DNA of 64,000 nt from Candidatus Poribacteria bacterium (lineage in GTDB: Bacteria > Poribacteria > WGA-4E > PCPOR2b). Position 1 is the first letter of the stretch, and each line of letters opens with the position of its first letter. The stretch covers positions 2,080,001 through 2,144,000 of the forward strand of contig OZ242351.1 in the NCBI GenBank assembly GCA_965208675.1, given 5' to 3'. The notes below the pieces were generated by a model. It did no database searches. It saw nothing but the letters and a program-made list of their open reading frames with translations, and was not told where the DNA came from. This document shows positions 1-51,498 of the stretch, in pieces. A program made the translations under genes and the position numbers.

Positions 1-5
1 AAACG

Positions 6-27273: not shown

Positions 27274-27310
27274 ATCTCCGATGAAAGCCTTTTTCGGGTA
27301 GAGACAGCCT

Positions 27311-28108: not shown

Positions 28109-28144
28109 GATTTCCCGCATTAATCCCATGAAGGAGGAATTCCA

Positions 28145-28945
28145 ATGAAAACCTTAATTTCGATTTTTGCGATTGCGGCTATAGCCGCCGTCTTTTGTGT
28201 TGGCGAGACAGCAGCGGCCGGCGGAGATGAAGACATTGTGCTCGCCATGCCTTTTGAAGAAGGTGAAGGCAATTCCACCATGGACATCTCTCCCCACGGT
28301 AACCACGGTACGCTTATGGACAACGCGAGTTGGGGTGCAGGTAAATTTGGTAACGCCGTACAGTTTGAACCGGTCGGCTATGTGAATGCCGGAAATGATG
28401 AAAGTTTGAGTCTGTCTGGCACAGACTTCACACTTGCTGTGTGGGTCAACATGACAGATACCGTCGGCCACCAACACGGGTTCATGGCTCAAGATGAAGG
28501 TGGCGGGCCGCGTAACAAATGGATTTTCCGGTACAATAGGGGCGCCAGCCAGAGTGTTAACATCCATATAAATACAGCCGACGGCGAGTCTATGCAGCTT
28601 GAACCCGGCCTATGGGATGTGCAGCCTAACACATGGCATCAGGTCGCCGTCGTTAGAGCGGGAAACGCGTACACGTTTTTCACCGATGGCGAGCAGAGCG
28701 CGCAGTTAGAGAACGACCTCGCCGTTCCGCCTGTTATCGACGCACCGGTCACTGTCGGTTGGGCGGAAGGTCCCATTGCTATGAGCGGCCTTATTGACGA
28801 AGCCCTAATCGCGAGGCGAGCCTTCACATCCGATGAAATCAAGATGCACTACGACGGCGGAGTGCAACAACTACTCGTCGCAGTTCAGCCCGCAGGCAAA
28901 TCTGCTGCCGTTTGGGGAAACATCAAGGCGAAGGCATCGCGCTGA
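28145..28945 (+). CDS. Secreted LamG domain protein (paralog)
   Basis: Same architecture, AGGAGG RBS. C-terminal VAVQPAGKSAAVWGNIK. Confidence 0.85.
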   Translation: MKTLISIFAIAAIAAVFCVGETAAAGGDEDIVLAMPFEEGEGNSTMDISPHGNHGTLMDNASWGAGKFGNAVQFEPVGYVNAGNDESLSLSGTDFTLAVWVNMTDTVGHQHGFMAQDEGGGPRNKWIFRYNRGASQSVNIHINTADGESMQLEPGLWDVQPNTWHQVAVVRAGNAYTFFTDGEQSAQLENDLAVPPVIDAPVTVGWAEGPIAMSGLIDEALIARRAFTSDEIKMHYDGGVQQLLVAVQPAGKSAAVWGNIKAKASR

Positions 28946-29045
28946 AAATCCCAACGGCAATCTTATAGGGGAGTTCTTGTAGGATCAACCGAGTGAATAA
29001 CGAGGGCGATAGTCTTCTCCCCGCATCAAATCCTCATCCTTTATA

Positions 29046-29270
29046 AGCTTTCTATTACCCACAAGTGTCTGGAGGTAGACGCCGTCTATGTTGGGACTAA
29101 CAACGATTGTTCATTTCGGTATGGTGTAAACTGTGGGAGGGACATCACTGTCCCGATAATCAGGACTAGGCAGCCCTTCCCACAGGCGCTTCACAGCATG
29201 GTAACGTCAAGAATGAGGGGAAAAACCCTTAAACTATTCGACCTTGCGGACTTGTGGGTAATAGTAAGCT
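29046..29270. mobile_element. MITE-like element (~225 bp) with 21-bp TIRs and target duplication, inserted in a CCCCCTT/AAGGGGG repeat
   Basis: AGCTTTCTATTACCCACAAGT ... ACTTGTGGGTAATAGTAAGCT (1 mismatch), flanked by TTATA at 29041-29045 and 29271-29275. Confidence 0.7.
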
Positions 29271-29354
29271 TTATAAAGGGGAGCGAGAGGGGGGTTGCGT
29301 GCTTTCCGCCCGCGTTTTATCTGAAATCTAATCTGAATTTGCAATGTAGCTCTT

Positions 29355-29533
29355 GTAGGTTGGGTTGAGCGGTGTTAACGCACCAACGCATGTATGCCGC
29401 GTATGTTACGTGTTCTGGTTGCGTTCAAAATTTGAACTGATGAAGCGTAACCCAACGTTTTTTGTTAAATGCGAAATGTATCGTTGACCGGTAGTTGCAG
29501 AAAACTATCGACTTCGCTATCCGTTCAGTTGAT
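29355..29533. repeat. Partial REPIN-like element
   Basis: GTAGGTTGGGTTGAGCGG, then GCGTAACCCAACG, then the ACTATCG..TTCGCTAT..G.TCAGTTGAT module. Confidence 0.7.
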
Positions 29534-29656
29534 TCTCTAAAATCGGGAGAAAGGTCTCCCTCCCACAGCGTTGCGGCGCGCGGCATTTTACCCTTGTGGG
29601 AAATAGTAAGCTGATTGGAACCGATTGCGCAATTGCGCGTATACGTCGTATTGCAG

Positions 29657-30475
29657 ATGTTATCCCAAAGACAACGACAACACTTTGATTCCTTCGGATT
29701 CGTGCTGTTGCGCCAGTTGTTTGATACCGGCGAAATGGACACGCTGCGCAGCGAGTTTGAAATCGGGCTTGAGAGTAAGTATCGCCATGCCCCCTTCGAC
29801 GGCACCCGGATGCACCACACCTACCTGATGGAATCGAACACGCCGTTCTTTGCGTCCCTGCTCGAAGACGATCGATTCGTCTCAGTTGCTGAGTCGCTCG
29901 GCGGATCGGACATCCTCGGTATCAACGCGACCGGCAACCGGCACGTCGGCAATACGCCTTGGCATGCTGACACCGACAGCTACCATCAATACGGCGTAAA
30001 GTTCGTATTCTATTTCGATTCCCTCACCGCTGCGAACGGAGCGCTCCGCGTTGTCCCCGGTTCGCATCGCCGCCCATACTTCGATCAGATGCGCGAGTTT
30101 ACAAGCATTCACCAAAATCCGGACGGTTCTACTATAGATGAGGTCCCCGCTTTCGGCATCGAGTCTGAGCCGGGCGATGTGATTGTCTTCGACCATCGCC
30201 TTTCGCATGCGAGCCGCGGCGGTCAGGACGACCGGCGGCTTGGCGCCGTTGTGTATTACCACAACCCCGCAACTCCTGAAGAAGAGAAAGCGCTCCGTTG
30301 GGCGTTCCACAAACGCAAAAAATCCGATCTGGAAAAATTTGGCCTGCCCGTCGGTCCATGGTACGATGCGGACTGGTGGTCGGCTCCGATCCCCAGCCCA
30401 AGACGGTTGCGATGGCGCCAACGCCTTGAATCCCTCGACTTCTTCTCCCCGCTCAACGACCAAGTCACTGAATAG
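29657..30475 (+). CDS. PhyH family dioxygenase
   Basis: MLSQRQRQHFDSFGFVLLRQLF, WHAD (HxD), GALRVVPGSH, PGDVIVFDHRLSHAS. Confidence 0.85.
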   Translation: MLSQRQRQHFDSFGFVLLRQLFDTGEMDTLRSEFEIGLESKYRHAPFDGTRMHHTYLMESNTPFFASLLEDDRFVSVAESLGGSDILGINATGNRHVGNTPWHADTDSYHQYGVKFVFYFDSLTAANGALRVVPGSHRRPYFDQMREFTSIHQNPDGSTIDEVPAFGIESEPGDVIVFDHRLSHASRGGQDDRRLGAVVYYHNPATPEEEKALRWAFHKRKKSDLEKFGLPVGPWYDADWWSAPIPSPRRLRWRQRLESLDFFSPLNDQVTE

Positions 30476-30566
30476 ATTCGTATCGGTTGGTTTGTGCGGG
30501 CTTGCGAAACCCAACGACCAGACCCGCCATTGGACATACGGTGCCGAACGAAAGGAGAATTTCAAA

Positions 30567-31358
30567 ATGAAGCTAATTAAACTGTGTGTCATTTGTATTC
30601 CGTTTCTGTTATCTGCAGCCGGATGCGCAAAGCCAAAGTCGTCCGACTACCCCATAATCAGTCCGGATAAGGTTGTCGCCATGTGGCTTTTTGACGAAGA
30701 CCACAAAGAAATCGCCTATGATTCGTCCGGCAATGGACACGATGGGGCACTGATGGTGCGCACCACGCGAGTCCCCGGCAAGTTTGGCGCAGCTTTGCAA
30801 TTTGGTGGTGCGGGCGATGTCGTCGTCGTCCCCGATTTTGGTGAGTCCGTACCCAGCAGCGAAGTAACCGTGGCGGCATGGATCAAACTTGAAGAGATCA
30901 AAAATCACGACCTTTTCAGTTTGGTTCCCATTAGCCGCGTTGGTCATTGGAGACCCGACATCGTCGATCGCTTTACCGTGCACTTCCCGTGGAATAGGCC
31001 CCATCCGAACACCATTCACTGGCAATTTGGCGGGGAACAGATTTGGATGCATCGACCCTCGGAAACTCTGGGCAGGTGGGAACATTGGGCATTTGTAAGC
31101 AGCGCCAGCCAAAATTTCATGAAAATCTACAGAAACGGGTCCGAGGTGGCGTGGTATAAGAGTGCGGGCGAATATTCTCCCCGTACTGCGGAATTGCACA
31201 TCGGCGGGCGGCCTAGAGACTTATTGGGCGGCACTCCCGGAGGAACCTTTGGCGGTATTATCGACGAGTTCGCCGTTTTCAACGTTGCGCTAAATGAGCG
31301 CGAAATCGTATCGCTGATGGGCGGGATTCGAAATACCGTCTCGCCGATGAAACCGTGA
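30567..31358 (+). CDS. LamG domain lipoprotein
   Basis: AAGGAG RBS then ATG at 30567. Lipobox-like LSAAGC, WLFDE, DSSGNGHDG, GKFG.AL.F, GIIDEFAVFN.AL. Confidence 0.85.
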   Translation: MKLIKLCVICIPFLLSAAGCAKPKSSDYPIISPDKVVAMWLFDEDHKEIAYDSSGNGHDGALMVRTTRVPGKFGAALQFGGAGDVVVVPDFGESVPSSEVTVAAWIKLEEIKNHDLFSLVPISRVGHWRPDIVDRFTVHFPWNRPHPNTIHWQFGGEQIWMHRPSETLGRWEHWAFVSSASQNFMKIYRNGSEVAWYKSAGEYSPRTAELHIGGRPRDLLGGTPGGTFGGIIDEFAVFNVALNEREIVSLMGGIRNTVSPMKP

Positions 31359-31470
31359 TGCGGGCTGGCGCGGTAGTTTTTGTAGGATCAAGTGACCGAA
31401 TAGGGAACGCGATAGTCTTGTAGTTCTTCTTAGAAGCCTTCTGCGATATTCTTCTCTGCCCATCAAATTC

Positions 31471-31500
31471 TCCCCCTTGCCAAGGGGGAGCGAGAGGGGG
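31471..31500. repeat. CCCCCTT-N-AAGGGGGAG palindromic repeat family (also 37551-37580, 37751-37780, and a disrupted copy at ~29036-29295)
   Basis: TCCCCCTTGCCAAGGGGGAGCGAGAGGGGG, CCCCCTTACCGAGGGGGAGTTAGAGGGGGT, TCCCCCTTTACAAGGGGGAGCTAGAGGGGG. Confidence 0.8.
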
Positions 31501-31649
31501 TCGGGTGAGTCTTTTAGTTCTTCACACCGGTCTCGGGCGATAACCTATCCTAAACTTCATCATCATCCCTCTCGTCCGTCCCTTTCAAACGAAACTCGAC
31601 TTGGATTTCACCATTTTAAATCCGGCACCGTACGAAAGGAGAGGTTAAA

Positions 31650-32429
31650 ATGAAGCTATATAAACTGTGTGTTATAGGTATTCCGTTTCTGTTATCTGCC
31701 ACAGGATGCGCAAAGCCGAAATCGTCCGACTACCCCATGATCAGTCCGGATAAGGTCGTCGCCATGTGGCTTTTTGACGAAGACCACAAAGAAATCGCCT
31801 ATGATTCGTCCGGCAATGGACACGATGGGGCACTGATGGTGCGCACCATGCGAGTCCCCGGCAAGTTTGGCACAGCTTTACAATTTGGCGACGACGGCGA
31901 TGCCGTCGTCGTCCCTGATTTTGGTAATTTTATTCCTAGTAGCGAAGTAACCGTGGCGGCGTGGATCAAACTTGAAGAGGTCAGGAATCAGGACCTTTTC
32001 AGTTTGGTCCCACTTAATCGAAGGGGTCATTGGCAAAGCGAGATAGATGATCGCTTCGCCGTGCACTTCCCGTGGAATACGCCCATGCGGAATGCTATTC
32101 ACTGGCAATTTGGCGGGGAACAGATTTGGATGCATCGACCCTCGGAAACTCTGGGCAGGTGGGAACATTGGGCATTTGTATGCAGCGCACGCCGAAATTT
32201 CATGAAAATATACAGAAATGGGTCCGAGGTGGCGTGGTATAAGAGTGCGGACCAATATTCTCCCCGTACTGCGGATTTGCACATCGGCGGGCGGCCTGCA
32301 TCCTTGTGGGGTGGTACGTTTGGCGGTATTATCGACGAGTTCGCTGTTTTCAACGTTGCGCTTAGCGAGCGCGAAATCGTAGCCTTGATGGGCGGAATTC
32401 GAAATACCGTCTCGCCGTTGAAACCGTGA
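31650..32429 (+). CDS. LamG domain lipoprotein, close paralog of 30567..31358
   Basis: Near-identical framework and 3' flank. Lipobox-like LSATGC. Confidence 0.85.
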   Translation: MKLYKLCVIGIPFLLSATGCAKPKSSDYPMISPDKVVAMWLFDEDHKEIAYDSSGNGHDGALMVRTMRVPGKFGTALQFGDDGDAVVVPDFGNFIPSSEVTVAAWIKLEEVRNQDLFSLVPLNRRGHWQSEIDDRFAVHFPWNTPMRNAIHWQFGGEQIWMHRPSETLGRWEHWAFVCSARRNFMKIYRNGSEVAWYKSADQYSPRTADLHIGGRPASLWGGTFGGIIDEFAVFNVALSEREIVALMGGIRNTVSPLKP

Positions 32430-32580: not shown

Positions 32581-33897
32581 TCATCGCAAATTGCCTCGCT
32601 TCAGCCAATTAGACATACTTCGATCCCACCTCCACGAGGACAATTCACCTTTATAACCAAATTCGTTCCGGTTGAATCCTAGCTTCACCCATTCCGAGCT
32701 GTCCGTGCTAAAGATACTGGCGACTCCCCCGTTTTCATTGACGCCGATCCCAGCTATCGAAAGCCCGTCCTTGCCAAAAGCAACGACACGCCCGCCGTGG
32801 TCGTCAGTACCCAGAACCGACTGCGATTCCCCGTCTTTTCCAAAGGCAGCAACCTCGCCGCCGTATTCTGCGATCGCTAACCCCGCCTTCGAAAACCCGT
32901 CCTTGCCAATAGCAACGACGCTCCCGCCATGTTCACCAATGCCTAGCGCCGCCCGCAATTCCCCGTCCTTGTCAAAGGCAGAAACACGCCCGCCGTATTC
33001 TCCAATTCCGAGCACCGCTCCCGATTTGCCGTCCTTGCCAAAGGCCGCAACACCCGTGCCGTGTTCTGTGCCCCCAAGCATCGCCCCCGATTCCCCGTCT
33101 TTTCCAACGGCATCAACGCTCCCGCCGTAATCTGTGATTCCCATCCCCGCCCGATATTTCCCGTCCTTGTCAAAGGCAACAACACTCCCGCCGTGTTCAT
33201 CAATACCGAGCACCGACTGCGATTTCCCGTCTTTGCCGATTGCGGCAACACTCCCGCCGTGTTCACGGGTAGCGAGCATCGCCCTCGGTTTCCCGTTTTT
33301 GCTTAAGGCAACTACGCGCCCGCCATGTTCATCAACACCGAGCCCCGCCCGCAATTTCCCGTCCCTGCCAGCGGCGGCAACACTCCCGCCGTGTTCATTA
33401 ACACCGAAAACCGCTCCCGATATCCCATCCTTGCCAAAGGCTTCAAAACTCCCGCCGTATTCTCCGATTCGGAGCCCCGCCATCGGCTTCCCGCCCTTGT
33501 CAAAGGCACCTACGCTCCCGCCGTTTTCATCAGTACCGAGAACCGCCTTCGATTTCCCGTCTTTGCCGATTGCGGCGACACCGCCGCCGTACTCTGTGAC
33601 TAATAACCCCGCCTTCGAAAACCCGTCTTTGCCAACGGCAGCAACGCCTCCGCCATGTTCAAGAACGACGAGGTTTATTACAGGAACACCCGCTTTATCA
33701 AAAACGACCACCTCGCCCCCGTCCTCAGACATCCCCAAGCTAACGACTGTCTTGCCCTCGTCGTCAACAATATTTAGCCGTTCACAACTAAACGTCTTTG
33801 CACTGTTCATCGTGCGGCTACACCCGCTCAACACTCCAGCACCTACAATCATGCCTCCAATCACCATAGTTGCCATTATCTCTCTCGTTACCTTCAT
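32581..33897 (-). CDS. Putative lipoprotein with ~16 tandem 22-aa Gly-rich beta repeats
   Basis: AGGAGG RBS, hydrophobic N-terminus ending VLSGC, repeat xV.AFGKDGK..A.LG..E(H/Y)GG. Confidence 0.8.
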   Translation of the reverse strand: MKVTREIMATMVIGGMIVGAGVLSGCSRTMNSAKTFSCERLNIVDDEGKTVVSLGMSEDGGEVVVFDKAGVPVINLVVLEHGGGVAAVGKDGFSKAGLLVTEYGGGVAAIGKDGKSKAVLGTDENGGSVGAFDKGGKPMAGLRIGEYGGSFEAFGKDGISGAVFGVNEHGGSVAAAGRDGKLRAGLGVDEHGGRVVALSKNGKPRAMLATREHGGSVAAIGKDGKSQSVLGIDEHGGSVVAFDKDGKYRAGMGITDYGGSVDAVGKDGESGAMLGGTEHGTGVAAFGKDGKSGAVLGIGEYGGRVSAFDKDGELRAALGIGEHGGSVVAIGKDGFSKAGLAIAEYGGEVAAFGKDGESQSVLGTDDHGGRVVAFGKDGLSIAGIGVNENGGVASIFSTDSSEWVKLGFNRNEFGYKGELSSWRWDRSMSNWLKRGNLR

Positions 33898-33930
33898 CGA
33901 ATGTCCTCCTAGAGTTTGTAGTTTGCGCTA

Positions 33931-34500
33931 CTACCGCCGATAACCGTTCTTATCCCACGTGTACACAGTACCGTTGCCGTATTCGTTGATGCCCATGCTA
34001 GCCCCGCCCTCGCTTTTACCCGTAACGTCTATACGACCGCCGTCCTCATCGATACCGAGTCCCACAAGCGATTTCCCATCCTTACCCCAAACGCCTATAT
34101 GGCCGCCGTTCTCAGCGCTACGGAGTCCCACAAGCGATTTCCCATCTTTACCCATAACGTCTATACGGCCGCCGTACTCATTGGTACCGAGGCCCGCACC
34201 CGGTTTCCCGTCTTTACCCTTAACAGTTATAATGCCGCCGTACTCTTCTTTGGTAAAGAGTCCCACAACCGGTTTCCCATCATTGCCACAGACGGCTATA
34301 TACCCGCCATCTTCCTCCGTCATAAGTACCACCAGTGGTCTCTCGCTGCCGTCTTTACTCACGACCGTCAACTTAGTACACTCAATCTCCCCTAACTTAT
34401 CCCGCTGCGCCGTTACCGGCGACACCAACAACGCCGTCAACAAACTCCCGATGACCCCGCCAACAATCCCGCTTAAAACCAGATAGTGTTTTGAATTCAC
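33931..34500 (-). CDS. Exported or membrane-anchored protein with ~6 of the same 22-aa repeats (likely GTG start at 34500)
   Basis: AAAGGAGG RBS before the GTG, N-terminal hydrophobic helix, RIDV.GKDGKSLVGL...E.GG repeats. Confidence 0.8.
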   Translation of the reverse strand: MNSKHYLVLSGIVGGVIGSLLTALLVSPVTAQRDKLGEIECTKLTVVSKDGSERPLVVLMTEEDGGYIAVCGNDGKPVVGLFTKEEYGGIITVKGKDGKPGAGLGTNEYGGRIDVMGKDGKSLVGLRSAENGGHIGVWGKDGKSLVGLGIDEDGGRIDVTGKSEGGASMGINEYGNGTVYTWDKNGYRR

Positions 34501-34637
34501 TGCAAATCCTCCTTTGTGGAATAACATTCCCTAGCGTCTGGCGTCCCGTTTGTTTTGACATTGTCTCGCCGCCGCCGTTGGCGCTGTTTGAAATCTCCCT
34601 GCGAAATTAGAAAGTTAGTTTTATCCGTCCACGCAAA

Positions 34638-34897: not shown

Positions 34898-34926
34898 TTG
34901 ACAGATCTCTTTCCATCGAGTATTAT
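34898..34926 (+). promoter_or_regulatory. Sigma70-type promoter facing the terminase genes
   Basis: TTGACA-17 nt-TATTAT with AT-rich upstream sequence. Confidence 0.7.
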
Positions 34927-34990
34927 ATCAACAGTAGCGTACGCGCCGGGTAACCGCGCCGCGATTTACAACTAAATATAAAACTATTCG

Positions 34991-35050
34991 AAAAGGCAAA
35001 CCCGCGAGGCAGCCTTATCAAGTGATGCTGAGGGTTTGCCTTTTTTTTTT
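34991..35050 (+). terminator. Intrinsic, possibly bidirectional, terminator
   Basis: AAAAGGCAAACCC ... GGGTTTGCC followed by T10, with an inner CAGC/GCTG stem. Confidence 0.7.
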
Positions 35051-35213: not shown

Positions 35214-35250
35214 ATTTAATCATAACCAATCGCCTCGCTGAGGTCATAAA

Positions 35251-35814
35251 ATGTGCGATAAATCAACTTGGTTGGAAGCCTTGAAAGGCGAAGACATTCG
35301 AAAAAACATCGCCTACAACATTCAGCGGTACGGTACCAAAAATACCGTTGAAGCCATCTACGATGATCCGAACTTCGCGACTTGCAGAACCGGTAACGCC
35401 GCGCAGGATCGGCGCGCAATCCATAACGCAATCCAAGTCTGCAATCCCAAAAACCGAGACCGGTTCAACTCACAGAAATATGGCGCCGCCGTCGCGGACG
35501 CCGTCAGAGATCAGCTCGAATTCGCAGTCGCTGAACACCTGCCGGACATTGAACAGTCCCTCAAGCGCATGCGCGACGTTGACGACTTGGCTGTCACAGC
35601 AGAAAATATTGATGAACTTAAGCTGCTTAGATTGAGGTTGCAGATTCATGAGAAATATAGATCAGCCTTATTCTCCCTCACCGGGCCTATTCGCGTCTAC
35701 GAGCGCCAACCTGGCGACTCGGGCGCCGGTGCAGCCCGACCCCAAATTAATTCGGGAGATTCGGGCGAAAGACTCCCTGAGCCCCCGAAATCGTTACGAG
35801 TCGATTCGGAGTAA
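35251..35814 (+). CDS. Hypothetical helical protein, candidate terminase small subunit
   Basis: GAGGT RBS, 187 aa, directly upstream of and overlapping TerL. Assignment is positional only. Confidence 0.45.
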   Translation: MCDKSTWLEALKGEDIRKNIAYNIQRYGTKNTVEAIYDDPNFATCRTGNAAQDRRAIHNAIQVCNPKNRDRFNSQKYGAAVADAVRDQLEFAVAEHLPDIEQSLKRMRDVDDLAVTAENIDELKLLRLRLQIHEKYRSALFSLTGPIRVYERQPGDSGAGAARPQINSGDSGERLPEPPKSLRVDSE

Positions 35815-37537
35815 AGGCTTGATTCATAACAAGGAAGAACGTAAGCTAGTCGTCCACATGGCTTACATCGATCCGGAGTTCTTTGTCGAACGCTATCTGC
35901 TCGACCCGCACGACATGTCGCCGTTGCAGCCGCATCATGTCGAACTCCTAAACCTCATCCCGTATAATGAAACCGGCGTCAAAGTCAACGTCCAAGCGCC
36001 GCGCGGCTCAGCGAAGACAACCTGCTGCGCTATCTGGTACCCGCTCTGGAGAATCTGTTTCAAAGACTTTCAGCTCGCTGAAGGCGTTCCGGACGAAAAA
36101 TTTATCCTCCTAATCAGTCGAAACGAAGGAATGGCGCAAGGTATACTTCGTGACATCAAGGAACTAATGGATACACCGGGAATTGTCGAAGACTTTGGAA
36201 TTCTGCGCGGCCCCGTATGGAAAATGGATGAATGCGAGACCGCAAACGGCGTCACCCTCGTGCCCCGCGGACGTAACCAATCACCGCGCGGCTCGCTCGT
36301 CCGCGGCAAACGCCCGTCGCTGCTCATCGTCGATGACCTAGAAGACACCGAACGCTGCATGAACCCCAAGCTGCGTCAAAACGATTGGGATTGGCTGTTC
36401 TCGGATGTCATGTTTACGTCCGACATCAGCGGGAACATCAACTGTATCTACGTCGACACCGTCAAACACCCGGAAAGCATTTCCATGCGGTTGACCAAGA
36501 CGCCCGGATGGAAAAATGTCCACTTCAAAGCCATTAAAGAACCCGAAGACCTCTACCACCCGACCCACGAACATCTCTGGAAAGAATGGGCAGGAATTTA
36601 TGGAGACATGACGCTCAATGACGTAGAGCGAGACGCGAAGGCTGACGAATTCTATAACGCCCACGCTGCAGAAATGAACGCTGGCGTCATTGCGCTCTGG
36701 CCCGAACGGTTGCCGTTTCTCGAAGTCCGTAAGATGGTTGTTGAGCGTGGATATCACTTCTGTTTGAGGGAACTGCAAAATATCGCCCGCGATCCCAGTA
36801 TGTCGCTGTTTGATATGGAAAACGCCATGACGTTCCGGGTGCATGAGCGCGGCTTGTTACGGAAGGACGGTCGAATCGTCGAATGGAGCCAAATCAGCGG
36901 CTTCACCACCTACCTCGACACCATGGGCGGGCGCGACGTACCCGATAATTCGTACGCTTGTGCCGTCGTCCTCGCCTGGGAGCCGTTGCCGGGTGATAAC
37001 TGGTCCAACTCCAACTCGATGGCGGGTATGAACGGGTATGTCCTGCTCTGCTGGCTGGATCGTAAAGGGCTAACCGAACAGTTCGACTACGCCATCCAGT
37101 ACCACCAGCGCGCGCATGCCATGCTGCACAAAGCCGTGCCGGAATCCAAGTTTTTCGTTGAATTGCCGCCTGACAAAGATTACACCATCCGCAGCGCTTA
37201 CTATTCCGCATTCAATTCCATGCGGCAAAAGCACCGGTTCGAAACGCCATTGGGTTTCCATTCCCAAACGCAGAAGAAGGAGGCGCGTATCGAAACGCTG
37301 GAACCCTCGATAAAAAACGGCTGGCTCGCCTTCAACGGGGTCGGCCTTCCCGGCGAGTTCTGGCAACAGTTCCGCGAGTTCCCGACCGCCGATCACAACG
37401 ACGCCCCGGACGCCGTGCAGGGCGCGTGCCGCGCGCGTATCTACAAATCTGAACGAATCCGCAACGCTAGACGGTATCAAGACCCCGATCTCGAAGAATG
37501 GTACCGTGCAACCCGATACAGAACCGTGCGCTTTTAA
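35648..37537 (+). CDS. terL: Phage terminase large subunit
   Basis: Walker A APRGSAKTT, ILLIS, RG...RPSLLIVDDLED (Walker B), KKEARIETLEP.IKNG, C-terminal FP...HNDAPDA nuclease motif. GAGGT RBS before the ATG. Confidence 0.85.
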   Translation: MRNIDQPYSPSPGLFASTSANLATRAPVQPDPKLIREIRAKDSLSPRNRYESIRSKGLIHNKEERKLVVHMAYIDPEFFVERYLLDPHDMSPLQPHHVELLNLIPYNETGVKVNVQAPRGSAKTTCCAIWYPLWRICFKDFQLAEGVPDEKFILLISRNEGMAQGILRDIKELMDTPGIVEDFGILRGPVWKMDECETANGVTLVPRGRNQSPRGSLVRGKRPSLLIVDDLEDTERCMNPKLRQNDWDWLFSDVMFTSDISGNINCIYVDTVKHPESISMRLTKTPGWKNVHFKAIKEPEDLYHPTHEHLWKEWAGIYGDMTLNDVERDAKADEFYNAHAAEMNAGVIALWPERLPFLEVRKMVVERGYHFCLRELQNIARDPSMSLFDMENAMTFRVHERGLLRKDGRIVEWSQISGFTTYLDTMGGRDVPDNSYACAVVLAWEPLPGDNWSNSNSMAGMNGYVLLCWLDRKGLTEQFDYAIQYHQRAHAMLHKAVPESKFFVELPPDKDYTIRSAYYSAFNSMRQKHRFETPLGFHSQTQKKEARIETLEPSIKNGWLAFNGVGLPGEFWQQFREFPTADHNDAPDAVQGACRARIYKSERIRNARRYQDPDLEEWYRATRYRTVRF

Positions 37538-37908
37538 CCCGCAAAAATCTCCCCCTTACCGAGGGGGAGTTAGAGGGGGTTCGGTGCAACACATTGATGT
37601 AGGAGCGGCTTCCCAGCCTCGATTGTCAATTAGGCGATTCCTCCTCGCGCAAACATGAACCGACATGACGATAGAAGGGATTCGGTACAACTCAAATTTT
37701 CAGCCCAATTCTTAAATTAAACCCTCGCTGTGCCGGCAATCGCAAAATCCTCCCCCTTTACAAGGGGGAGCTAGAGGGGGTTGGGTTCAAGATTAAATCC
37801 GAGATCGAACCTTCAATTTAAGCCAGTATACTTGATGTCTCTCTGCCTTCACCCTTGACTTATGTTTAGCCACAATGCAATAATCTAGTAAAACCAATCC
37901 GAAAAACA

Positions 37909-40900
37909 ATGCCAACCCTCAACCTAAAACCCACCCACAAACCCATCAAGAATTACTACGCCGCACTCGATCAATTCGACCGCCTCGGCGTTACGCACGA
38001 AACCGCTGTCCGCTCGGCATTTCAATCCCTGCTTCAACACTACGGGGGAAAACTAAAATGGACCCTAGTCCCGGAATATCCGATTAATCGTCAAGGCAGC
38101 CGAATTGTCGTTGACGGCGCACTGATTGACATCTTTAACTTAAATCACGGCTACTGGGAGGCGAAAGACATCCACGACGACCTGCCGTCCGAGGTGATGC
38201 GAAAATTTGAGGCCGGCTATCCGCGTGACAACATCCTCTTCCAGACCCCGCATCGCGCAATCCTCTGGCAAAACGCCCAGCCGGTGCTTGATGCTGACCT
38301 CACAAACTCGAAAGACCTGATAGGAACGCTTGAAACCTTCTTCTCCCACCACGCTCCGGAATACACAGATTGGGAAGAGGCGGTCGCGCACTTCAAAACG
38401 GTTGTGCCCGAACTCGGTGAATCCTTGGCAAACCTCATAAAATCCGAGCGGGAGTCAAATGATCGGCTTAAACCCGCTTTCAGAGCGTTCTACGAGAAAT
38501 GTCGTCAAGCCATCAATCCAAACCTCTCCGAAGCCGCAGTCGAGGAGATGCTAATCCAGCACCTCTTGACCGAACGCATCTTTCGCACCGTCTTCGACAA
38601 CCCCGATTTCACCCGCCGCAACGTCATCGCCGTAGAAATAGAAAAGGTTATTGATGCACTCACGTCGGCGTCGTTCAGCCGCGATAGCTTTCTACACAGC
38701 CTCGACCACTTCTACGCTGCGATCGAACGCACCGCTGCGACCATCAGTGACTTTTCCCAAAAACAAGGTTTTCTCAACACCGTATACGAGCAGTTTTTTC
38801 AAGGCTTCTCGGTGAAGGTTGCAGACACGCACGGAATTGTCTACACCCCGCAGCCGATTGTCGATTTCATGGTGAGTAGCGTTGAGGAGATTCTAAAAGC
38901 AGAATTCAATCGATCGCTCTCCGATTCCGGCGTCCACATTATTGACCCGTTTGTGGGCACCGGAAATTTCATCGTGCGAATCATGCGCGAGATTCGACGC
39001 ACCGCGCTAGCGGAAAAGTATCAGTCCGAACTCCACTGCAATGAGGTGATGCTGCTGCCGTACTACATCGCCTCAATGAATATCGAGCATGAGTATTTCA
39101 TGGCTACCGGAAGGTATCACCCTTTTGAGGGCATCTGTTTCGTTGATACCTTTGAGTTAGTAGAAGACCCCGATGACTATCAATCTCTGTTTGAAGCGGA
39201 AAATACCCGCCGCATTGAAAATCAGAACGAGTCTCCGATGTTTGTTGTTGTCGGAAATCCCCCTTACAACGCCGGTCAGATTAACGAAAACGACAACAAC
39301 AAAAATCGAGACTATGACGCGATGAACGAACGGATTAAGACAACTTATGCCAAAAGATTCAAAGCGAGCCAAACAAGAAAAGTTTACGACCCCTATGTAA
39401 AAGCAATTCGGTGGGCATCGGACCGCATTGAAAACGAAGGCATTGTCGCATTCATAACGAATAACAGCTTTATTGATGATTTGAGTTTTGATGGAATGAG
39501 GAAACTACTAGCGGACGATTTTGGCGCAATTTACATCTTGGACCTCGGTGGCAACGCGCGCAAGGGGTTGAAGGTCTCCGACTCCAATGTGTTCGGGATT
39601 CAGGTTGGCGTAAGCATCACTTTTTTCATCAAATCTCGTGGCACTTCAAACTCCAAAGCCGAAATCTTCTATGCTCGTACAGACGAATCTTGGCGAAAGA
39701 TAGACACGTTTCGGTATCTGAATTCTAAGCGACACTACCGTAACATCGAATGGGAGCCAATCGCGCCAGACCGTCGACATACATGGCTCACCAAAGGGCT
39801 CCTATATGAATTTGAAACTTTTATCCCGTTAGGTGATAAGGAAGTAAAAGCAGCGAATGGTGAAGCCGTGGATTTGATTTTTAAGTCATTTAGTCTCGGT
39901 GTCAGCACGAATCGAGATTCGTGGTGTTACAATTTCAACCGAAACGCCTTGGTTGAAAACATAAGCCGGATGATGGATACCTACAATGCTGAGCTTGACA
40001 GGTGGAGGCGTCGTGAGAATCGGCAAATAACCGTTGATAATTTTGTGGATAATGATGTCACGAAGATTAAGTGGAGTGAAGGCTTAAAAAAGAAACTGCT
40101 GAGCGGACATATCTCTGAATTCAACAACGCAAAAATCCGACAATCCCTTTATCGCCCTTTTACAAAATTAAATCTCTACTTTGATCGAATGATGAACGAC
40201 CGAGTGCTCCTATTTCCATCCATTTTCCCCACACTGAAAAGTCAAACGGAAAATCTAGTGATTTGCCTGACTGACAAGGGTTCCGAGAAACCCTTTATGA
40301 TCATTATGAACCACCAACCAACAGATCTTCATGCTGTGGGCCCGGGTTGTGGTACCCAATGCTTCCCCTTCTACACCTACGATGAGGATGGCACAAACCG
40401 CCGGGAGAACATCACGAATTGGGCGTTGTCGCAATTCCGGACATATTACAGAGACAATACCATCGGCAAATGGGACATCTTTCATTACGTATATGGTCTG
40501 CTCCACCACCCGGAATATCGGGAGCGGTATGCTGCCAACCTCAAGCGCGACCTGCCCCGCCTCCCCTACGCGCCCGACTTCTGGGGGTTCGCCAATGCCG
40601 GCAAGCGCTTAGGAGAAATCCACGTCGGCTATGAAGACGTGAATGAATTTCCACTTGCCCAGATCGAAACACCAGATACACAGCTCGATTGGCGCGTTGA
40701 AAAGATGAAACTGTCCAAAGACAAAACCCAAATAAAATACAACGACTTCCTTACCCTCGACGGCATACCGGCAAAGGTGCTTGACTATCGCCTAGGAAAT
40801 AGATCTGCTTTGGAATGGGTAATTGACCAGTACCGCGTCAAAACCGACAAACGCAGCGGCATCGTCAATGACCCCAACCGCCTCGACGACCCAACATACA

Positions 40901-40986
40901 TCGTCAACCTCATCTCCAAAGTAATCACCGTCAGCCTCGAAACCGTTGACATCGTGGAAAGTTTGCCGGAATTGGGTTTAGAATAG
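37909..40986 (+). CDS. Single-chain restriction-modification enzyme: PD-(D/E)xK nuclease + N6-adenine methyltransferase + Type ISP-like specificity domain, no helicase
   Basis: VDG...GYWEAK, GIVYTPQPIVDF, IIDPFVGTGNF (motif I), GNPPY (motif IV), YRPF, YVYGLLH...YR.RY..NLK..LPR, Y.LG.RSALEWVIDQY. Confidence 0.85.
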   Translation: MPTLNLKPTHKPIKNYYAALDQFDRLGVTHETAVRSAFQSLLQHYGGKLKWTLVPEYPINRQGSRIVVDGALIDIFNLNHGYWEAKDIHDDLPSEVMRKFEAGYPRDNILFQTPHRAILWQNAQPVLDADLTNSKDLIGTLETFFSHHAPEYTDWEEAVAHFKTVVPELGESLANLIKSERESNDRLKPAFRAFYEKCRQAINPNLSEAAVEEMLIQHLLTERIFRTVFDNPDFTRRNVIAVEIEKVIDALTSASFSRDSFLHSLDHFYAAIERTAATISDFSQKQGFLNTVYEQFFQGFSVKVADTHGIVYTPQPIVDFMVSSVEEILKAEFNRSLSDSGVHIIDPFVGTGNFIVRIMREIRRTALAEKYQSELHCNEVMLLPYYIASMNIEHEYFMATGRYHPFEGICFVDTFELVEDPDDYQSLFEAENTRRIENQNESPMFVVVGNPPYNAGQINENDNNKNRDYDAMNERIKTTYAKRFKASQTRKVYDPYVKAIRWASDRIENEGIVAFITNNSFIDDLSFDGMRKLLADDFGAIYILDLGGNARKGLKVSDSNVFGIQVGVSITFFIKSRGTSNSKAEIFYARTDESWRKIDTFRYLNSKRHYRNIEWEPIAPDRRHTWLTKGLLYEFETFIPLGDKEVKAANGEAVDLIFKSFSLGVSTNRDSWCYNFNRNALVENISRMMDTYNAELDRWRRRENRQITVDNFVDNDVTKIKWSEGLKKKLLSGHISEFNNAKIRQSLYRPFTKLNLYFDRMMNDRVLLFPSIFPTLKSQTENLVICLTDKGSEKPFMIIMNHQPTDLHAVGPGCGTQCFPFYTYDEDGTNRRENITNWALSQFRTYYRDNTIGKWDIFHYVYGLLHHPEYRERYAANLKRDLPRLPYAPDFWGFANAGKRLGEIHVGYEDVNEFPLAQIETPDTQLDWRVEKMKLSKDKTQIKYNDFLTLDGIPAKVLDYRLGNRSALEWVIDQYRVKTDKRSGIVNDPNRLDDPTYIVNLISKVITVSLETVDIVESLPELGLE

Positions 40987-41005
40987 AAAAGGAGGACATT
41001 CAGCC

Positions 41006-41887
41006 GTGTCAAATTCTATTGTGAACTTGGGCGACCCAACGAAGCCCCTAGATACACTAATCAATAAAATTAGTGATGCAACCGGAGTGCTATTTGAACC
41101 TACACGAATTAGGCGCAAGGCTAAAGCAGAATCGGATGCTGCAATTATATCCGCTAAGGCAGAGGCTGCGGTTGACAAAATAAAGGCAGAATCTGCGATG
41201 GAAATTACCGACTTACATAAACGAGCCGCGCAGCGTCGAATCGAAGAAGATGCACGTCAACAAAAGAACATGGAGGACATAATCACTAAAGCGGCACCTC
41301 ATTTGAAAGAAGAAGCAAAACCCGACGCCATGGATGACGACTGGATCTCCAACTTCTTTGATAAATCTCGGATTGTATCTGACAGTGAGATGCAGAGCCT
41401 TTGGTCACGAGTTTTAGCTGGCGAAGCAAATGCTCCTGGCACCTACTCTAAGCGGACTGTTAATTTTGTCGCCGCGCTTGAAAAGAGCGAAGCACATCTG
41501 TTCACCAAACTATGCGGCTTTGTTTGGAAGATACACGACTTTGTGCCGCTGGTATTTGATTTACAGGCGGCAGTCTACAACCGACACGGTATTGACTTTG
41601 GGCCCCTCAGTCACCTTGAGAGTATTGGACTTGTTAAGCTTGCCGCCCCTAACGATTTTAGACAAACTCACCTACCCCGTAGATTTCCTGTGTATTACTA
41701 TGGAAAGTCGCTGTTCTTAGAAATACCTCCCAATTCCGAAAACGAAATAATGACTGGTAAGGCACGATTCACAAAAATCGGACAGGAACTTGCACCGATA
41801 TGCGGTAGTAAGCCAGTGGAAGGTTTCTACGAATACGTGAAGAGCCAATGGCGTCAATATTTACCCAAGGATGAAAATAAGGAATAG
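41006..41887 (+). CDS. DUF2806-like protein
   Basis: AAGGAGG RBS then GTG. RQQKNME.I..KA, DDDWI.NFFD..R.VSD.EMQ.LW..VLAGE...PG.YSKRT. Confidence 0.7.
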   Translation: MSNSIVNLGDPTKPLDTLINKISDATGVLFEPTRIRRKAKAESDAAIISAKAEAAVDKIKAESAMEITDLHKRAAQRRIEEDARQQKNMEDIITKAAPHLKEEAKPDAMDDDWISNFFDKSRIVSDSEMQSLWSRVLAGEANAPGTYSKRTVNFVAALEKSEAHLFTKLCGFVWKIHDFVPLVFDLQAAVYNRHGIDFGPLSHLESIGLVKLAAPNDFRQTHLPRRFPVYYYGKSLFLEIPPNSENEIMTGKARFTKIGQELAPICGSKPVEGFYEYVKSQWRQYLPKDENKE

Positions 41888-51404: not shown

Positions 51405-51498
51405 TGGCGGGAGAGGGTGGGAGTCGAACCCACCTACCCACTTGCATGGGCAAGCTGGTTTTGAAGACCAGTAGAGCCACCGGACCCTATCCTCTCCC
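51405..51498 (-). tRNA. selC: tRNA-Sec (anticodon UCA)
   Basis: 94 nt, GGGAGAGG...CTGGTCTTCAAAACCAG, long variable arm, GGTTCGACTCC, ends CCTCTCCCGCCA. Lies downstream of selB. Confidence 0.95.

What the first reader, a model, noticed from the sequence alone, without database searches (positions are those of the whole stretch)
35251..37537. Stand-alone, intact terminase pair with no other phage genes
Seen: a full-length, uninterrupted TerL (Walker A/B, C-terminal nuclease motif, good RBS) preceded by a TerS-sized helical ORF. No portal, capsid, tail, integrase or lysis gene is recognisable anywhere in 64 kb. Known: in tailed phages terL is almost always followed by the portal gene; here it is followed by host-type repeats and an RM gene. 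Inference: a domesticated packaging motor (dispersed gene-transfer agent, satellite-like hijacking of helper capsids, or an anti-phage decoy/nuclease) rather than a decaying prophage.
Basis: partly seen in the sequence, partly recalled or inferred. Interest (0 to 1): 0.8.

Follow-up and report, generated by a model that had tools for sequence, protein, structure and literature searches.

The report
Multi-copy orphan terminase pairs, Poribacteria
A sponge-symbiont bacterium keeps six intact copies of a phage DNA-packaging enzyme and its small partner gene without any detectable phage shell genes, which suggests the pair has a life of its own, as a hitch-hiker on other phages or as a defence against them.

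Summary
Window 35251-35814 is a 187-aa helical ORF. Window 35648-37537 is an intact 629-aa large terminase (TerL): phrog_38 E=2.6e-54, AlphaFold model matching solved TerLs, Walker A/B and nuclease acidic residues conserved.

It is not a singleton. The 4.89-Mb single-contig genome (Candidatus Poribacteria, judged from relatives' record titles) holds six diverged, intact small-ORF+TerL pairs. None lies next to virion genes. HMM searches of the genome found no portal (four families with working controls) and no HK97-type capsid.

The family appeared only in Poribacteria: 33 of 176 genomes, 6 of 31 genera, up to 7 copies per genome. 74 of 88 places are full-length and uninterrupted. TerL dN/dS is 0.02-0.37.

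Some copies are syntenic across species. Others share only the 2.2-2.8 kb pair. One sits at the edge of a 10-kb island missing from two congeners. One clade in another genus still has a P22-like portal and an internal virion protein nearby, so the origin is a phage.

Best reading (0.4): a selected, self-contained packaging module that uses capsids of infecting phages, as a satellite-like hitcher. Anti-phage defence is the main rival (0.25). TerS identity of the small ORF is unproven. The same stretch was also noted from an overlapping window of this genome.

The parts
35251..35814 (+). Small ORF, 187 aa, in the TerS position. Helix bundle (res 7-60), two long helices (74-144), disordered tail (147-187). 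Invariant N65-P66 motif.
   Evidence: A homologous small ORF lies upstream of and overlaps the TerL start in 41 of 42 loci. No Pfam, PHROG, PADLOC or PDB match.
35240..35244 (+). GAGGT ribosome-binding site, 6 nt before the ATG of the small ORF
   Evidence: Read from the sequence
35634..35638 (+). GAGGT ribosome-binding site, 9 nt before the TerL ATG at 35648, inside the small ORF
   Evidence: Read from the sequence. The N-terminal residues of TerL are conserved as protein among c1, c2 and c3.
35648..37537 (+). TerL, 629 aa, packaging ATPase plus nuclease, intact
   Evidence: phrog_38 E=2.6e-54. AF2 pLDDT 86.1. Foldseek hits to solved TerLs.
35648..35814 (+). 167-nt overlap of the two genes, with TerL in the +1 frame. 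It encodes the low-confidence tails of both proteins.
   Evidence: small ORF 147-187 pLDDT<50; TerL 1-23 pLDDT<50
35996..36019 (+). Walker A, APRGSAKT (residues 117-124)
   Evidence: R119 and K123 invariant in 46 of 46
36320..36337 (+). Walker B, LLIVDD (residues 225-230)
   Evidence: D230 invariant, D229 at least 90%
36917..36919 (+). D424, first acidic residue of the RNase H-like nuclease domain
   Evidence: at least 90% conserved. Nuclease-domain fold matches.
37400..37411 (+). DAPD (residues 585-588), C-terminal nuclease acidic motif
   Evidence: D588 invariant, D585 at least 90%
37549..37569 (.). REP-like hairpin CTCCCCC-N-GGGGGAG just after the TerL stop. A second copy starts at 37750.
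34898..34926 (+). Promoter-like site TTGACA-17-TATTAT (11 of 12), about 325 nt upstream of the small ORF, followed by a hairpin plus T-run near 35000-35050
   Evidence: A link to the pair is not shown.
33931..34527 (-). GG-repeat exported protein, 198 aa. Its family is associated with the pairs in this genome.
32581..33897 (-). GG-repeat lipoprotein-like paralog, 438 aa
   Evidence: no Pfam match
37909..40986 (+). Type IIG/ISP-like restriction-modification enzyme, 1025 aa. A neighbour, syntenic with c1 in congeners.
41006..41887 (+). DUF2806 protein, 293 aa, neighbour

Best explanation
The two genes are a phage-derived, self-contained terminase module. A small DNA-recognition-type subunit sits with a catalytically intact TerL ATPase-nuclease. 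Selection keeps the module functional as a multi-copy, accessory, horizontally moving unit of Poribacteria chromosomes.

Proposed mechanism (inferred, not shown): when a phage infects and supplies procapsids, the small protein marks DNA at or near its own locus. TerL cuts there, docks on the foreign portal and pumps the adjacent chromosomal DNA into the capsid. That DNA includes the module and its neighbouring cargo. The module therefore spreads like a minimal, integrase-less satellite or 'hitcher', by in-situ lateral-transduction-like packaging, and it competes with the phage's own packaging.

Shown: the identity and integrity of TerL, the paired architecture, multi-copy purifying selection, the lack of detectable portal or capsid genes, patchy and partly mobile distribution, and phage ancestry.

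Inferred: DNA recognition by the small ORF, the use of helper capsids, and transfer.
For: 1. TerL is real and complete. ATPase and nuclease residues are conserved across 46 relatives, so both translocation and cutting appear to be under constraint, as packaging requires.

2. There are six intact pairs in one 4.89-Mb contig. 41 of 42 loci have a full-length TerL and an overlapping upstream small ORF. 74 of 88 places in the phylum scan are full-length without stops.

3. dN/dS is 0.02-0.37 for TerL and 0.15-0.71 for the small ORF, in 18 pairs.

4. The genome lacks detectable portal families PF04860, PF05133, PF16510 and phrog_156 and capsid family PF05065, all with positive controls. It also lacks homologues of the virion-like proteins of the related g9 element. 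Capsids would therefore have to come from outside.

5. Phage ancestry. The nearest phage TerLs are about 27% identical and come from Mu-like Pseudomonas phages and Paenibacillus phages. One TerL clade in genus g9 has further phage-like genes nearby: 5 of its 8 loci (L017, L019, L021, L022, L025) keep a P22-like portal (PF16510 E=5e-7, phrog_156 E=5e-14) within 10 kb upstream, and the one locus extended further (L019/G027) also holds an internal virion protein (phrog_511 E=1e-16).

6. Accessory and mobile behaviour.
- 33 of 176 genomes, patchy within genera.
- c2, c4 and c5 share only 2.2-2.8 kb with their closest relatives.
- c2 sits 148 bp from the edge of a 10.05-kb island that is absent in G034 and G035.
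- Small-ORF types are shuffled against the TerL tree.
Against: - No helper phage is known. The best of 167 IMG/VR relatives is only 34% identical.
- No integrase, replication gene or att repeat accompanies most copies. There is no tyrosine recombinase in the window, and no direct repeat longer than 9 bp at the ends of the c2 island.
- No pac site was identified.
- The small ORF matches no TerS family or fold.
- The c1, c3 and c6 loci are syntenic across species, which also fits a vertically kept host or defence gene.
- Many neighbours are defence-type genes, which fits the defence rival equally well.
- No expression or packaging data could be obtained.
Confidence: 0.4

Rival explanations
1. 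Dedicated anti-phage defence. The small subunit recognises phage DNA or a packaging intermediate. TerL then cleaves it, or occupies the phage portal, and aborts packaging. The several diverged types would give several specificities.
For: - Patchy, multi-copy and island-located, as defence genes usually are.
- The small ORF evolves fast and is swapped between types: between c1 and L009, TerL is 71% identical but the small ORF only 34%.
- c1 lies next to a Type IIG RM enzyme.
- Among 127 nearest neighbours of 32 loci, PADLOC finds IIG RM, type III RM, Dsr1, ThsB, QatC, AriA/ATPase-Toprim (3), mad3 (5) and mad8 (5).
- Antitoxin-type SocA_Panacea (3) and AAA_21 (3) domains also occur among these neighbours.
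Against: - Neither protein matches any PADLOC model.
- No control set was run for the neighbour counts.
- Many neighbours are housekeeping genes such as ABC transporters, DNA polymerase III alpha and GpsA.
- A pure decoy would not need both catalytic centres conserved.
Confidence: 0.25
2. Part of a dispersed particle-forming system, either a GTA or a prophage with scattered genes. Its capsid, portal and tail genes are too divergent to be recognised, or lie on an unassembled replicon.
For: - The related g9 element has several ORFs with no family match, for example a 526-aa protein directly after TerL in 7 loci. Unrecognisable virion genes therefore exist in this lineage.
- The genome is 96.4% complete and only one contig is held, so an extrachromosomal element could be missing.
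Against: - Five portal or capsid HMM searches with positive controls were empty.
- tblastn with all g9 phage-like proteins found nothing in the genome at E<=1e-3 apart from TerL, an HNH protein and a 196+146-aa pair.
- Only the two genes recur among the neighbours of the 42 loci.
- Six paralogous terminases are not expected for one particle system.
Confidence: 0.12
3. Functionless leftovers of several old prophages that happen to be intact.
For: - The ancestry is phage.
- Decayed fragments do exist: 12 of 88 places are partial and 4 carry stops. L036 is frameshifted.
Against: - dN/dS is well below 1 in all 18 TerL comparisons.
- 74 of 88 places are full-length and open.
- The same two genes survive at every locus while all other phage genes are gone.
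- Syntenic orthologues are retained at 76-93% identity.
Confidence: 0.08
4. A selfish cut-and-paste-like element in which TerL's RNase H-like nuclease acts as the mobilising enzyme, with short non-autonomous derivatives.
For: - The unit that moves is just the pair plus 0.2-0.4 kb of flank.
- The roughly 200-bp segment after type-B TerL has 9 solitary copies. Two of these keep the TerL 3' end. One locus in G034 and G035 joins the 5' end of the unit to this segment.
- Foldseek also matches RuvC.
Against: - No terminal inverted repeats or target duplications were found.
- The paralogues are old (34-68% aa identity) and not recent copies.
- Type-A units such as the one in the window have no such repeat.
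- No terminase is known to transpose (recalled).
Confidence: 0.08

Closest known systems
TerL of Mu-like (D3112/Casadabanvirus) Pseudomonas phages and of Paenibacillus phages (phrog_38)
   Same: Same protein family and two-domain fold. 26-28% identity over 83-89% of the query.
   Different: In phage PaMx73, TerL is followed directly by portal, Mu-F-like, protease/scaffold and major head genes. Here none of these is present in the genome.
Phage satellites that carry packaging genes (PICI with TerS; capsid-forming PICIs with TerS, TerL, capsid and portal)
   Same: Chromosomal elements that carry terminase genes and depend on a helper phage for the missing virion parts. This is the proposed logic here. 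Papers were seen only as search listings with the start of the abstract: 10.1101/2022.09.08.507074 and PMC10085698.
   Different: Those elements have an integrase, regulators, replication genes and att sites, and cf-PICIs also have capsid and portal genes (recalled plus abstract starts). Most units here are the two genes alone: no tyrosine recombinase in the window, and 4 of 127 nearest neighbours are integrases.
Gene transfer agents
   Same: Phage-derived packaging genes kept under purifying selection in a cellular genome (recalled).
   Different: GTAs encode their own capsid, portal and tail (recalled). None was detected here. Presence is patchy rather than clade-wide.
Cryptic prophage remnants with orphan terminase genes
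   Same: Phage ancestry and the lack of neighbouring virion genes.
   Different: Six intact paralogues per genome, dN/dS 0.02-0.37, and the same gene pair retained at 41 of 42 loci.
Defence systems that act at DNA packaging or sense TerL (prophage system targeting the terminase complex; Avs3, which binds TerL)
   Same: They concern the same step of infection. The top structural match of this TerL is the PhiV-1 terminase in complex with Avs3, PDB 8dgc. Paper 10.1101/2025.02.27.640495 was seen only as a listing with the start of its abstract.
   Different: Those systems target a phage's terminase and are not themselves terminases. No PADLOC model matches either protein here.

Membership tests
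Large terminase subunit (TerL) of tailed phages | Profile match to a TerL family | tested here: met
   phrog_38 E=2.6e-54, residues 61-608. Pfam gave no family at E<=0.01.
Large terminase subunit (TerL) of tailed phages | N-terminal ASCE ATPase with Walker A and Walker B | tested here: met
   APRGSAKT and LLIVDD. K123 and D230 are invariant in 46 of 46. ATPase-domain fold matches T4 gp17 and P74-26.
Large terminase subunit (TerL) of tailed phages | C-terminal RNase H-like nuclease with conserved acidic residues | tested here: met
   D424 and D585 at least 90% conserved, D588 invariant. Fold matches HSV pUL15 and HCMV UL89 nuclease domains and RuvC.
Large terminase subunit (TerL) of tailed phages | Packages DNA into a procapsid through a portal | not testable with these tools
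   No portal was detected in the genome. Activity needs an experiment.
Small terminase subunit (TerS) | Sequence or profile match to a TerS family | tested here: not met
   No Pfam family for any of 31 members below E=0.009 and none recurrent. No PHROG. No PDB sequence match to a TerS. The atlas gave only leads under 0.9: viral clusters, and Terminase_5 at 0.85.
Small terminase subunit (TerS) | Fold similar to a solved or predicted TerS | tested here: not met
   Foldseek on PDB and on BFVD: 0 matches at E<=0.001. A Pseudomonas phage TerS appears only at E=2.1.
Small terminase subunit (TerS) | Gene immediately upstream of TerL; architecture of a helical DNA-binding-type head, a coiled-coil core and a flexible tail | tested here: met
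   Upstream and overlapping in 41 of 42 loci. AF2 shows a helix bundle at 7-60, long helices at 74-144 and a disordered tail at 147-187. This is suggestive, not defining.
Small terminase subunit (TerS) | Binds TerL and a pac/cos site | not testable with these tools
   Needs an experiment. See Tried and rejected for the one modelling attempt.
Phage satellite (PICI, cf-PICI, P4-like, PLE) | Integrase and attachment repeats bounding the element | tested here: not met
   No PF00589 match in the window. The four in the genome lie at 1.12, 1.78, 2.43 and 3.08 Mb, and the nearest is 9.6 kb from c5. The c2 island has no integrase and no end repeat longer than 9 bp. 8 of 42 loci have a recombinase within 10 kb.
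Phage satellite (PICI, cf-PICI, P4-like, PLE) | Helper-dependent packaging and transfer | not testable with these tools
   No helper phage is known, and no virome data could be laid on the loci.
Gene transfer agent | Own capsid, portal and tail genes in the genome | tested here: not met
   PF04860, PF05133, PF16510, phrog_156 and PF05065 gave no match, with controls positive. Tail families were not tested.
Known anti-phage defence systems (PADLOC-DB 2.0) | Match of either protein to a defence model | tested here: not met
   0 families for both proteins at E<=0.01.

The most novel reading that the evidence does not exclude
A previously undescribed class of minimal 'terminase-only' hitcher. It is a two-gene unit with no integrase, replication or capsid genes. 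It starts headful packaging in situ on the chromosome and loads itself and the neighbouring accessory island (defence genes, surface GG-repeat proteins) into capsids of infecting phages. That would make it a natural driver of lateral transduction in an uncultured sponge-symbiont phylum. The diversified small subunits and the three deep TerL types would then match different helper phages. The dispersed 200-bp element after type-B TerL would be a candidate cis packaging site.
Probability: 0.25. Interest if true: 0.85.

Novelty: new variant of a known kind. Interest (0 to 1): 0.66.

Why it matters
Terminases are treated as hallmark genes of complete tailed phages, and prophage finders use them as such. 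Here a lineage-specific terminase family persists for long periods as a bare two-gene unit. It occurs in up to seven selected copies per genome, and the genome has no detectable capsid or portal.

If the unit pirates helper capsids, it would be the smallest satellite-like element known. It would also be a route of gene transfer for Poribacteria, which cannot be cultured. If instead it is a defence, it would be a case of a phage packaging motor turned against phages.

Either way, this pair gives a concrete, testable entry point. It is also a caution for virus-detection pipelines, which would score these loci as viral.

Tried and rejected
Searches that found nothing:
- Pfam on TerL and on the small ORF: no family at E<=0.01. 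PADLOC on both: none.
- PDB sequence searches: single TerL gave only chance hits at E about 0.9. The TerL profile A3 gave 0 at E<=0.01. The small-ORF profile gave only syntaxin-type coiled-coil noise at E>=0.1.
- Foldseek of the small-ORF model against PDB and BFVD: nothing at E<=0.001.
- Rfam on L001, L004 and L005 at E<=1: two chance-level hits, nothing at the 200-bp element.
- PF06074 (Mu portal) in the genome: no match, but the control genomes were silent too, so it says nothing.
- Literature: searches for 'Poribacteria'+'terminase' (6 papers, none on this), for 'terminase large subunit'/'orphan'/'no other phage genes', and for satellite/terminase terms found no description of stand-alone multi-copy terminase pairs. 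Only listings and abstract starts were seen and no paper was opened. Supplements are closed.

Attempts without a usable result:
- Complex prediction of TerL with the small ORF: 'no answer' (score 0.29, mark 0.32). This is neither for nor against binding.
- The look-up of sequencing runs: no RNA holder was listed, so expression could not be examined.
- Read laying of contigs from four runs: contigs from other sponge metagenomes cover the pair together with its upstream neighbour. No informative joint across the pair was seen. Uncovered parts are not evidence.
- IMG/VR scan: 167 relatives, best 34% identity, none of this family.
- Metagenome-contig scan with intermediate relatives: only relatives at 34% identity or less, so the contexts of the 30-48%-identical representatives P0122-P0144 remain unknown. 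Their clusters carry no names.
- CRISPR: one array in the genome with 46 spacers, none matching any of the 42 loci beyond 16-18-nt chance matches.
- Empty-site search for c5: the region is a mosaic of IS and repeat copies and gave no clean junction.

Caveats on results used:
- The neighbour PADLOC and Pfam counts have no control set and are only suggestive.
- The careful tree search did not finish. The quick IQ-TREE tree was used.
- dS exceeds 1 in several small-ORF comparisons, so those ratios are unreliable.
- Before the neighbour scan I dropped loci L011, L013, L021 and L029, which are close orthologues of L010, L009, L034 and L028, to stay under the residue limit. The own-genome loci c1-c6 were not in that set.

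Considered and rejected:
- A programmed frameshift fusing the small ORF to TerL. There is no need for it, because TerL has its own RBS and ATG that are conserved in c1 and c2.
- A TerL start at M71 (35858), as many gene callers chose (559-aa forms). Residues 30-70 are conserved as protein, and no RBS precedes 35858.
Full report
THE OBSERVATION. The window holds, on the + strand, a 187-aa ORF (35251-35814) and a 629-aa ORF (35648-37537) that overlap by 167 nt. The large one is a terminase large subunit.
- It matches phrog_38 at E=2.6e-54 over residues 61-608.
- Its AlphaFold model (46-row alignment, pLDDT 86.1, pTM 0.82) finds solved TerLs as best PDB matches: PhiV-1 terminase 2.2e-15, T4 gp17 3.4e-12, a T7 model, then herpesvirus terminase nuclease domains, the P74-26 ATPase domain and RuvC.
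- Walker A (APRGSAKT), Walker B (LLIVDD) and the acidic nuclease residues (D424, DAPD 585-588) are present. They are invariant or at least 90% conserved in 46 relatives.
- Each gene has a GAGGT at a proper distance from its ATG.
- Pfam gave no family at E<=0.01. A sequence search of the PDB gave nothing.

NOT A SINGLETON. A six-frame search of the window's own genome (one contig of 4,892,038 bases, completeness 96.4%) found six TerL paralogues, all open. They are 100, 68, 64, 40, 39 and 38% identical to the query. I call them c1 (the window) to c6. Each is preceded by a small ORF of 162-205 aa that overlaps its start. Between c1, c2 and c3, DNA similarity (70-73%) begins 5-10 nt before the small ORF and ends about 100 nt before the TerL stop. 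No flank is shared.

A scan of one genome per species of GTDB found 36 further loci. All are in records titled Candidatus Poribacteria, with several loci per genome. The 120 closest database proteins listed (of 133 with E<=0.001 among 5232 candidates) come largely from megabase contigs; 22 of the 120 lie on contigs longer than 2 Mb. The one named hit is Poribacteria.

WHAT IS CONSERVED AROUND IT. I clustered all ORFs of at least 90 aa within 10 kb in 42 loci. Only TerL (42 of 42) and the upstream small ORF recur. The small ORFs fall into clusters of 22, 16 and 4 loci, 41 loci in all, and the 42nd locus is frameshifted. No portal, capsid or tail cluster recurs.

SELECTION. 41 of 42 TerLs are full length. 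Nei-Gojobori dN/dS in 18 pairs is 0.023-0.365 for TerL and 0.152-0.709 for the small ORF. Several small-ORF comparisons are saturated in dS.

In a scan of 176 genomes of the phylum, 33 have the family. That is 30 of the 133 high-quality genomes and 6 of 31 genera. Counts within genera are 3 of 3 besides the window's genome, then 9 of 10, 6 of 20, 9 of 40, 4 of 65 and 1 of 3. The own genus has 5-7 places per genome. Of the 88 places listed, 74 are near full-length with no stop, 2 are full-length with one TAG, and 12 are partial. So the genes are kept working, but they are accessory.

VERTICAL AND MOBILE AT ONCE. The quick maximum-likelihood tree has three deep types: A (c1-c3 and the large clade of genus g9), B (c4, c5) and C (c6). 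Within the own genus there are sub-clades of one copy per genome (the careful search did not finish).
- c1 is syntenic with its orthologues in three congeners, including the PhyH and Laminin_G genes upstream and the RM enzyme plus DUF2806 downstream. TerL (77% nt identity) diverges about as fast as the flanks (76-84%).
- c3 and c6 are also syntenic with their orthologues.
- c2, c4 and c5 share only 2.2-2.8 kb with their closest relatives.
- For c2 the flanks are contiguous in G034 and G035, 88 bp apart. The window's genome has 10.05 kb there, with the TerL stop 148 bp from the island edge. The island also holds the small ORF, a GG-repeat protein and four ORFs without Pfam matches. It has no integrase and no end repeats longer than 9 bp.
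- Small-ORF types are exchanged between TerL lineages. Between c1 and L009, TerL is 71% identical and the small ORF 34%. The deepest TerL branch, c6, carries a small ORF that clusters with g9 loci.

NO VIRION GENES IN THIS GENOME, BUT A PHAGE PAST. HMM searches of the whole genome found no match to Phage_portal, SPP1_portal, P22_portal, phrog_156 or Phage_capsid, while each rang in control genomes. The Mu-portal search is uninformative, because its control was silent.

The nearest phage TerLs are 26-28% identical. They come from Mu-like Pseudomonas phages, Paenibacillus phages and others. In PaMx73, TerL is followed at once by portal, Mu-F-like, protease/scaffold and major head genes.

One TerL clade of genus g9 (8 rows in the tree) keeps a larger context. 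Five of its loci (L017, L019, L021, L022, L025) hold a P22-like portal within 10 kb upstream of TerL. Up to seven of its loci share other genes of the block, including a conserved 526-aa unknown right after TerL. The block holds:
- the 573-aa P22-like portal, 7-10 kb upstream of TerL (PF16510 E=5.3e-7, above the cut-off; phrog_156 E=5.2e-14);
- a 576-aa protein matching internal virion protein phrog_511 (E=9.5e-17), seen in the one locus I extended (L019/G027) and by tblastn in L022;
- a weak structural-protein hit, in the extended locus only;
- an HNH gene (3 loci).
None of these proteins has a tblastn match in the window's genome at E<=1e-3. The portal has none even at E<=10 inside the window. 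The family therefore descends from a Poribacteria phage, and the stand-alone pairs are what persists.

No member of the family was found among 2.9 million viral contigs; the best of 167 relatives is 34% identical. An exhaustive profile-free search of 1.84 billion representatives found 2701 relatives at E<=0.001, and 99 of these have E<=1e-30. About two dozen of them are 30-48% identical, and their contexts I could not obtain.

THE SMALL ORF. Thirty-one homologues align with an invariant Asn-Pro (N65-P66) and an N-terminal region typical of small helical DNA-binding heads. The model (pLDDT 75.7) has a five-helix bundle at residues 7-60 (pLDDT above 90), two long helices at 74-144 and a disordered tail. 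That is the general build of a small terminase.

Even so, no Pfam, PHROG or PDB profile match and no Foldseek match supports membership. The language-model atlas gives only sub-threshold leads, to viral clusters and to Terminase_5. I therefore call it TerS-like by position and build only.

NEIGHBOURHOOD. In this genome 4 of 6 pairs have a GG-repeat exported protein within 5 kb. That family has 28 tblastn hits at about 16 places genome-wide. None of 20,000 random placements reached 4.

Among the two nearest ORFs of at least 150 aa on each side of 32 loci (127 proteins), PADLOC at E<=1e-5 finds Type IIG and Type III RM, Dsr1, ThsB, QatC, AriA/ATPase-Toprim (3), mad3 (5), mad8 (5) and others. Pfam adds integrases (4), SocA_Panacea (3) and AAA_21 (3), next to plain housekeeping genes. 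No control set was run. c1 itself lies between host-type genes: PhyH, Laminin_G_3 paralogues and GG-repeat proteins on one side, and the RM enzyme, DUF2806, glyoxalases and GpsA on the other.

HOW IT MOST LIKELY WORKS. Both catalytic centres are conserved. The partner gene is always retained. The copies are multiple, diverged and selected. The genome has no capsid or portal of its own. The units behave as accessory and sometimes mobile DNA.

The simplest mechanism that uses all of this is a terminase holoenzyme that works on procapsids supplied by an infecting phage, that is, a minimal satellite-like hitcher that packages from its chromosomal site. I give this 0.4. All steps after 'intact terminase pair under selection without virion genes' are inference.

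The main rival is defence (0.25). It explains the island context and the fast, shuffled small subunit equally well. The two readings are not exclusive, since satellites interfere with their helpers. The remaining rivals get lower odds:
- A dispersed GTA or unrecognised virion genes: 0.12.
- Neutral remnants: 0.08.
- A TerL-driven transposon-like element: 0.08. This last is prompted by the dispersed 200-bp element after type-B TerL and its truncated derivatives.

COMPARISON WITH WHAT IS KNOWN. The protein is an ordinary member of the TerL family. The arrangement is not ordinary.
- Phages couple TerL to a portal.
- Capsid-forming PICIs carry TerS and TerL, but together with capsid, portal, integrase and regulators.
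- Other PICIs carry only TerS.
- GTAs carry full head and tail sets.
- Cryptic prophages decay.
My literature searches (listings and abstract starts only) found no account of multi-copy, selected, stand-alone terminase pairs. I rate it a new variant of a known kind.

LIMITS.
- The genome is a metagenome-assembled single contig, so extrachromosomal replicons would be missed.
- Tail and lysis families were not searched.
- The tree is the quick one.
- Neighbour enrichment is uncontrolled.
- No expression, particle or binding data exist.
- Supplements of papers could not be seen, though no claim here rests on them.

Noticed in passing
window 32581-34527 (- strand); also G000 around 1.075, 1.764-1.771, 3.830-3.838 Mb: Exported proteins built from a 22-aa Gly-rich repeat behind a conserved SPVTAQ-DKFGEIEC head lie within 5 kb of 4 of the 6 terminase pairs (0 of 20,000 random placements reach this). 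There are 28 hits at about 16 places in the genome. They have no Pfam family. The atlas gives only a weak lead to a cluster in which 13% of members carry gp37_trimer.
   Followed up: partly
G000:C1:1770470-1770714 and 3835381-3835588 (after c5 and c4); solitary copies at 710468, 2428804, 2606234, 3021327, 3395696, 4300225, 4390185, 4729490, 4729819: A roughly 200-bp non-coding element directly follows the stop of every type-B TerL (c4, c5, L037, L040). It also occurs 9 times alone. Two solitary copies keep the last ~140 nt of TerL. In G034 and G035 one locus joins the start of the small ORF to this element. It has no Rfam match. It could be a remnant, a MITE-like derivative or a cis site.
   Followed up: partly
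L019 with L124 (G027:C1:919438-939866): A roughly 20-kb phage-like block. In the one genome I extended (L019/G027) it runs: unknown ORFs, a phrog_511 internal virion protein, a P22-like portal, an HNH gene, the small ORF, TerL, and a conserved 526-aa unknown. The part from the portal to the 526-aa unknown recurs in genus g9: the portal in 5 loci, the 526-aa unknown in 7. No recognisable major capsid was found. It could be a persistent partial prophage, a satellite or a GTA-like element.
   Followed up: partly
L129:8815-18868 (G000:C1:1071315-1081368): A 10.05-kb island carrying c2 is absent from two congeners (flanks 88 bp apart there), and 2.9 kb of repeats replace it in a third. It has no integrase and no end repeats. 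Its cargo ORFs of 857, 318, 226 and 157 aa have no Pfam match.
   Followed up: yes
window 34898-35050: A strong promoter-like site (TTGACA-17-TATTAT, 11 of 12) is followed after about 100 nt by a long GC hairpin with a T10 run, with no ORF.
   Followed up: partly
window 37909-41887: A 1025-aa Type IIG/ISP-like RM enzyme (Type_ISP_C 3e-106, coupler, N6_Mtase; PADLOC REase_MTase_IIG 4e-242) without the N-terminal nuclease-helicase part of Type ISP enzymes. A DUF2806 protein follows it. The pair is syntenic with c1 in three congeners.
   Followed up: partly
G000:C1:2425356, 3084743, 1780096: Three of the genome's four tyrosine recombinase genes lie within 12 kb of a GG-repeat gene. One of these also lies near a solitary 200-bp element, and another is 9.6 kb from pair c5.
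   Followed up: no
window 26476-32429: A run of Laminin_G_3 (concanavalin-like) lipoprotein paralogues of about 260 aa sits beside a PhyH dioxygenase. Only 28145-28945 and 31650-32429 were scanned against Pfam; the 265-aa ORFs at 26476-27273 and 27311-28108 and the ORF at 30183-31358 are placed here by size and, for the last, sequence likeness alone. The array is also present upstream of the c1 orthologues.
   Followed up: no
window 51405-51498 (- strand): A tRNA-SeC gene (anticodon TCA), the only tRNA found in the window.
   Followed up: no
window 3-8744: A giant ORF of more than 2900 aa runs off the window start. It was not examined.
   Followed up: no
G000:C1:102876-105950: The genome's only detected CRISPR array: 47 repeats of 30 nt and 46 spacers. 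No spacer matches the terminase loci.
   Followed up: yes
G033:C1:3138083, G034:C1:3134531 and 209082, G035:C1:3035121 and 2256798: A further TerL sub-type (open frames of 616 aa, E about 1e-200 to the profile) is present in the three congeners but absent from the window's genome.
   Followed up: no
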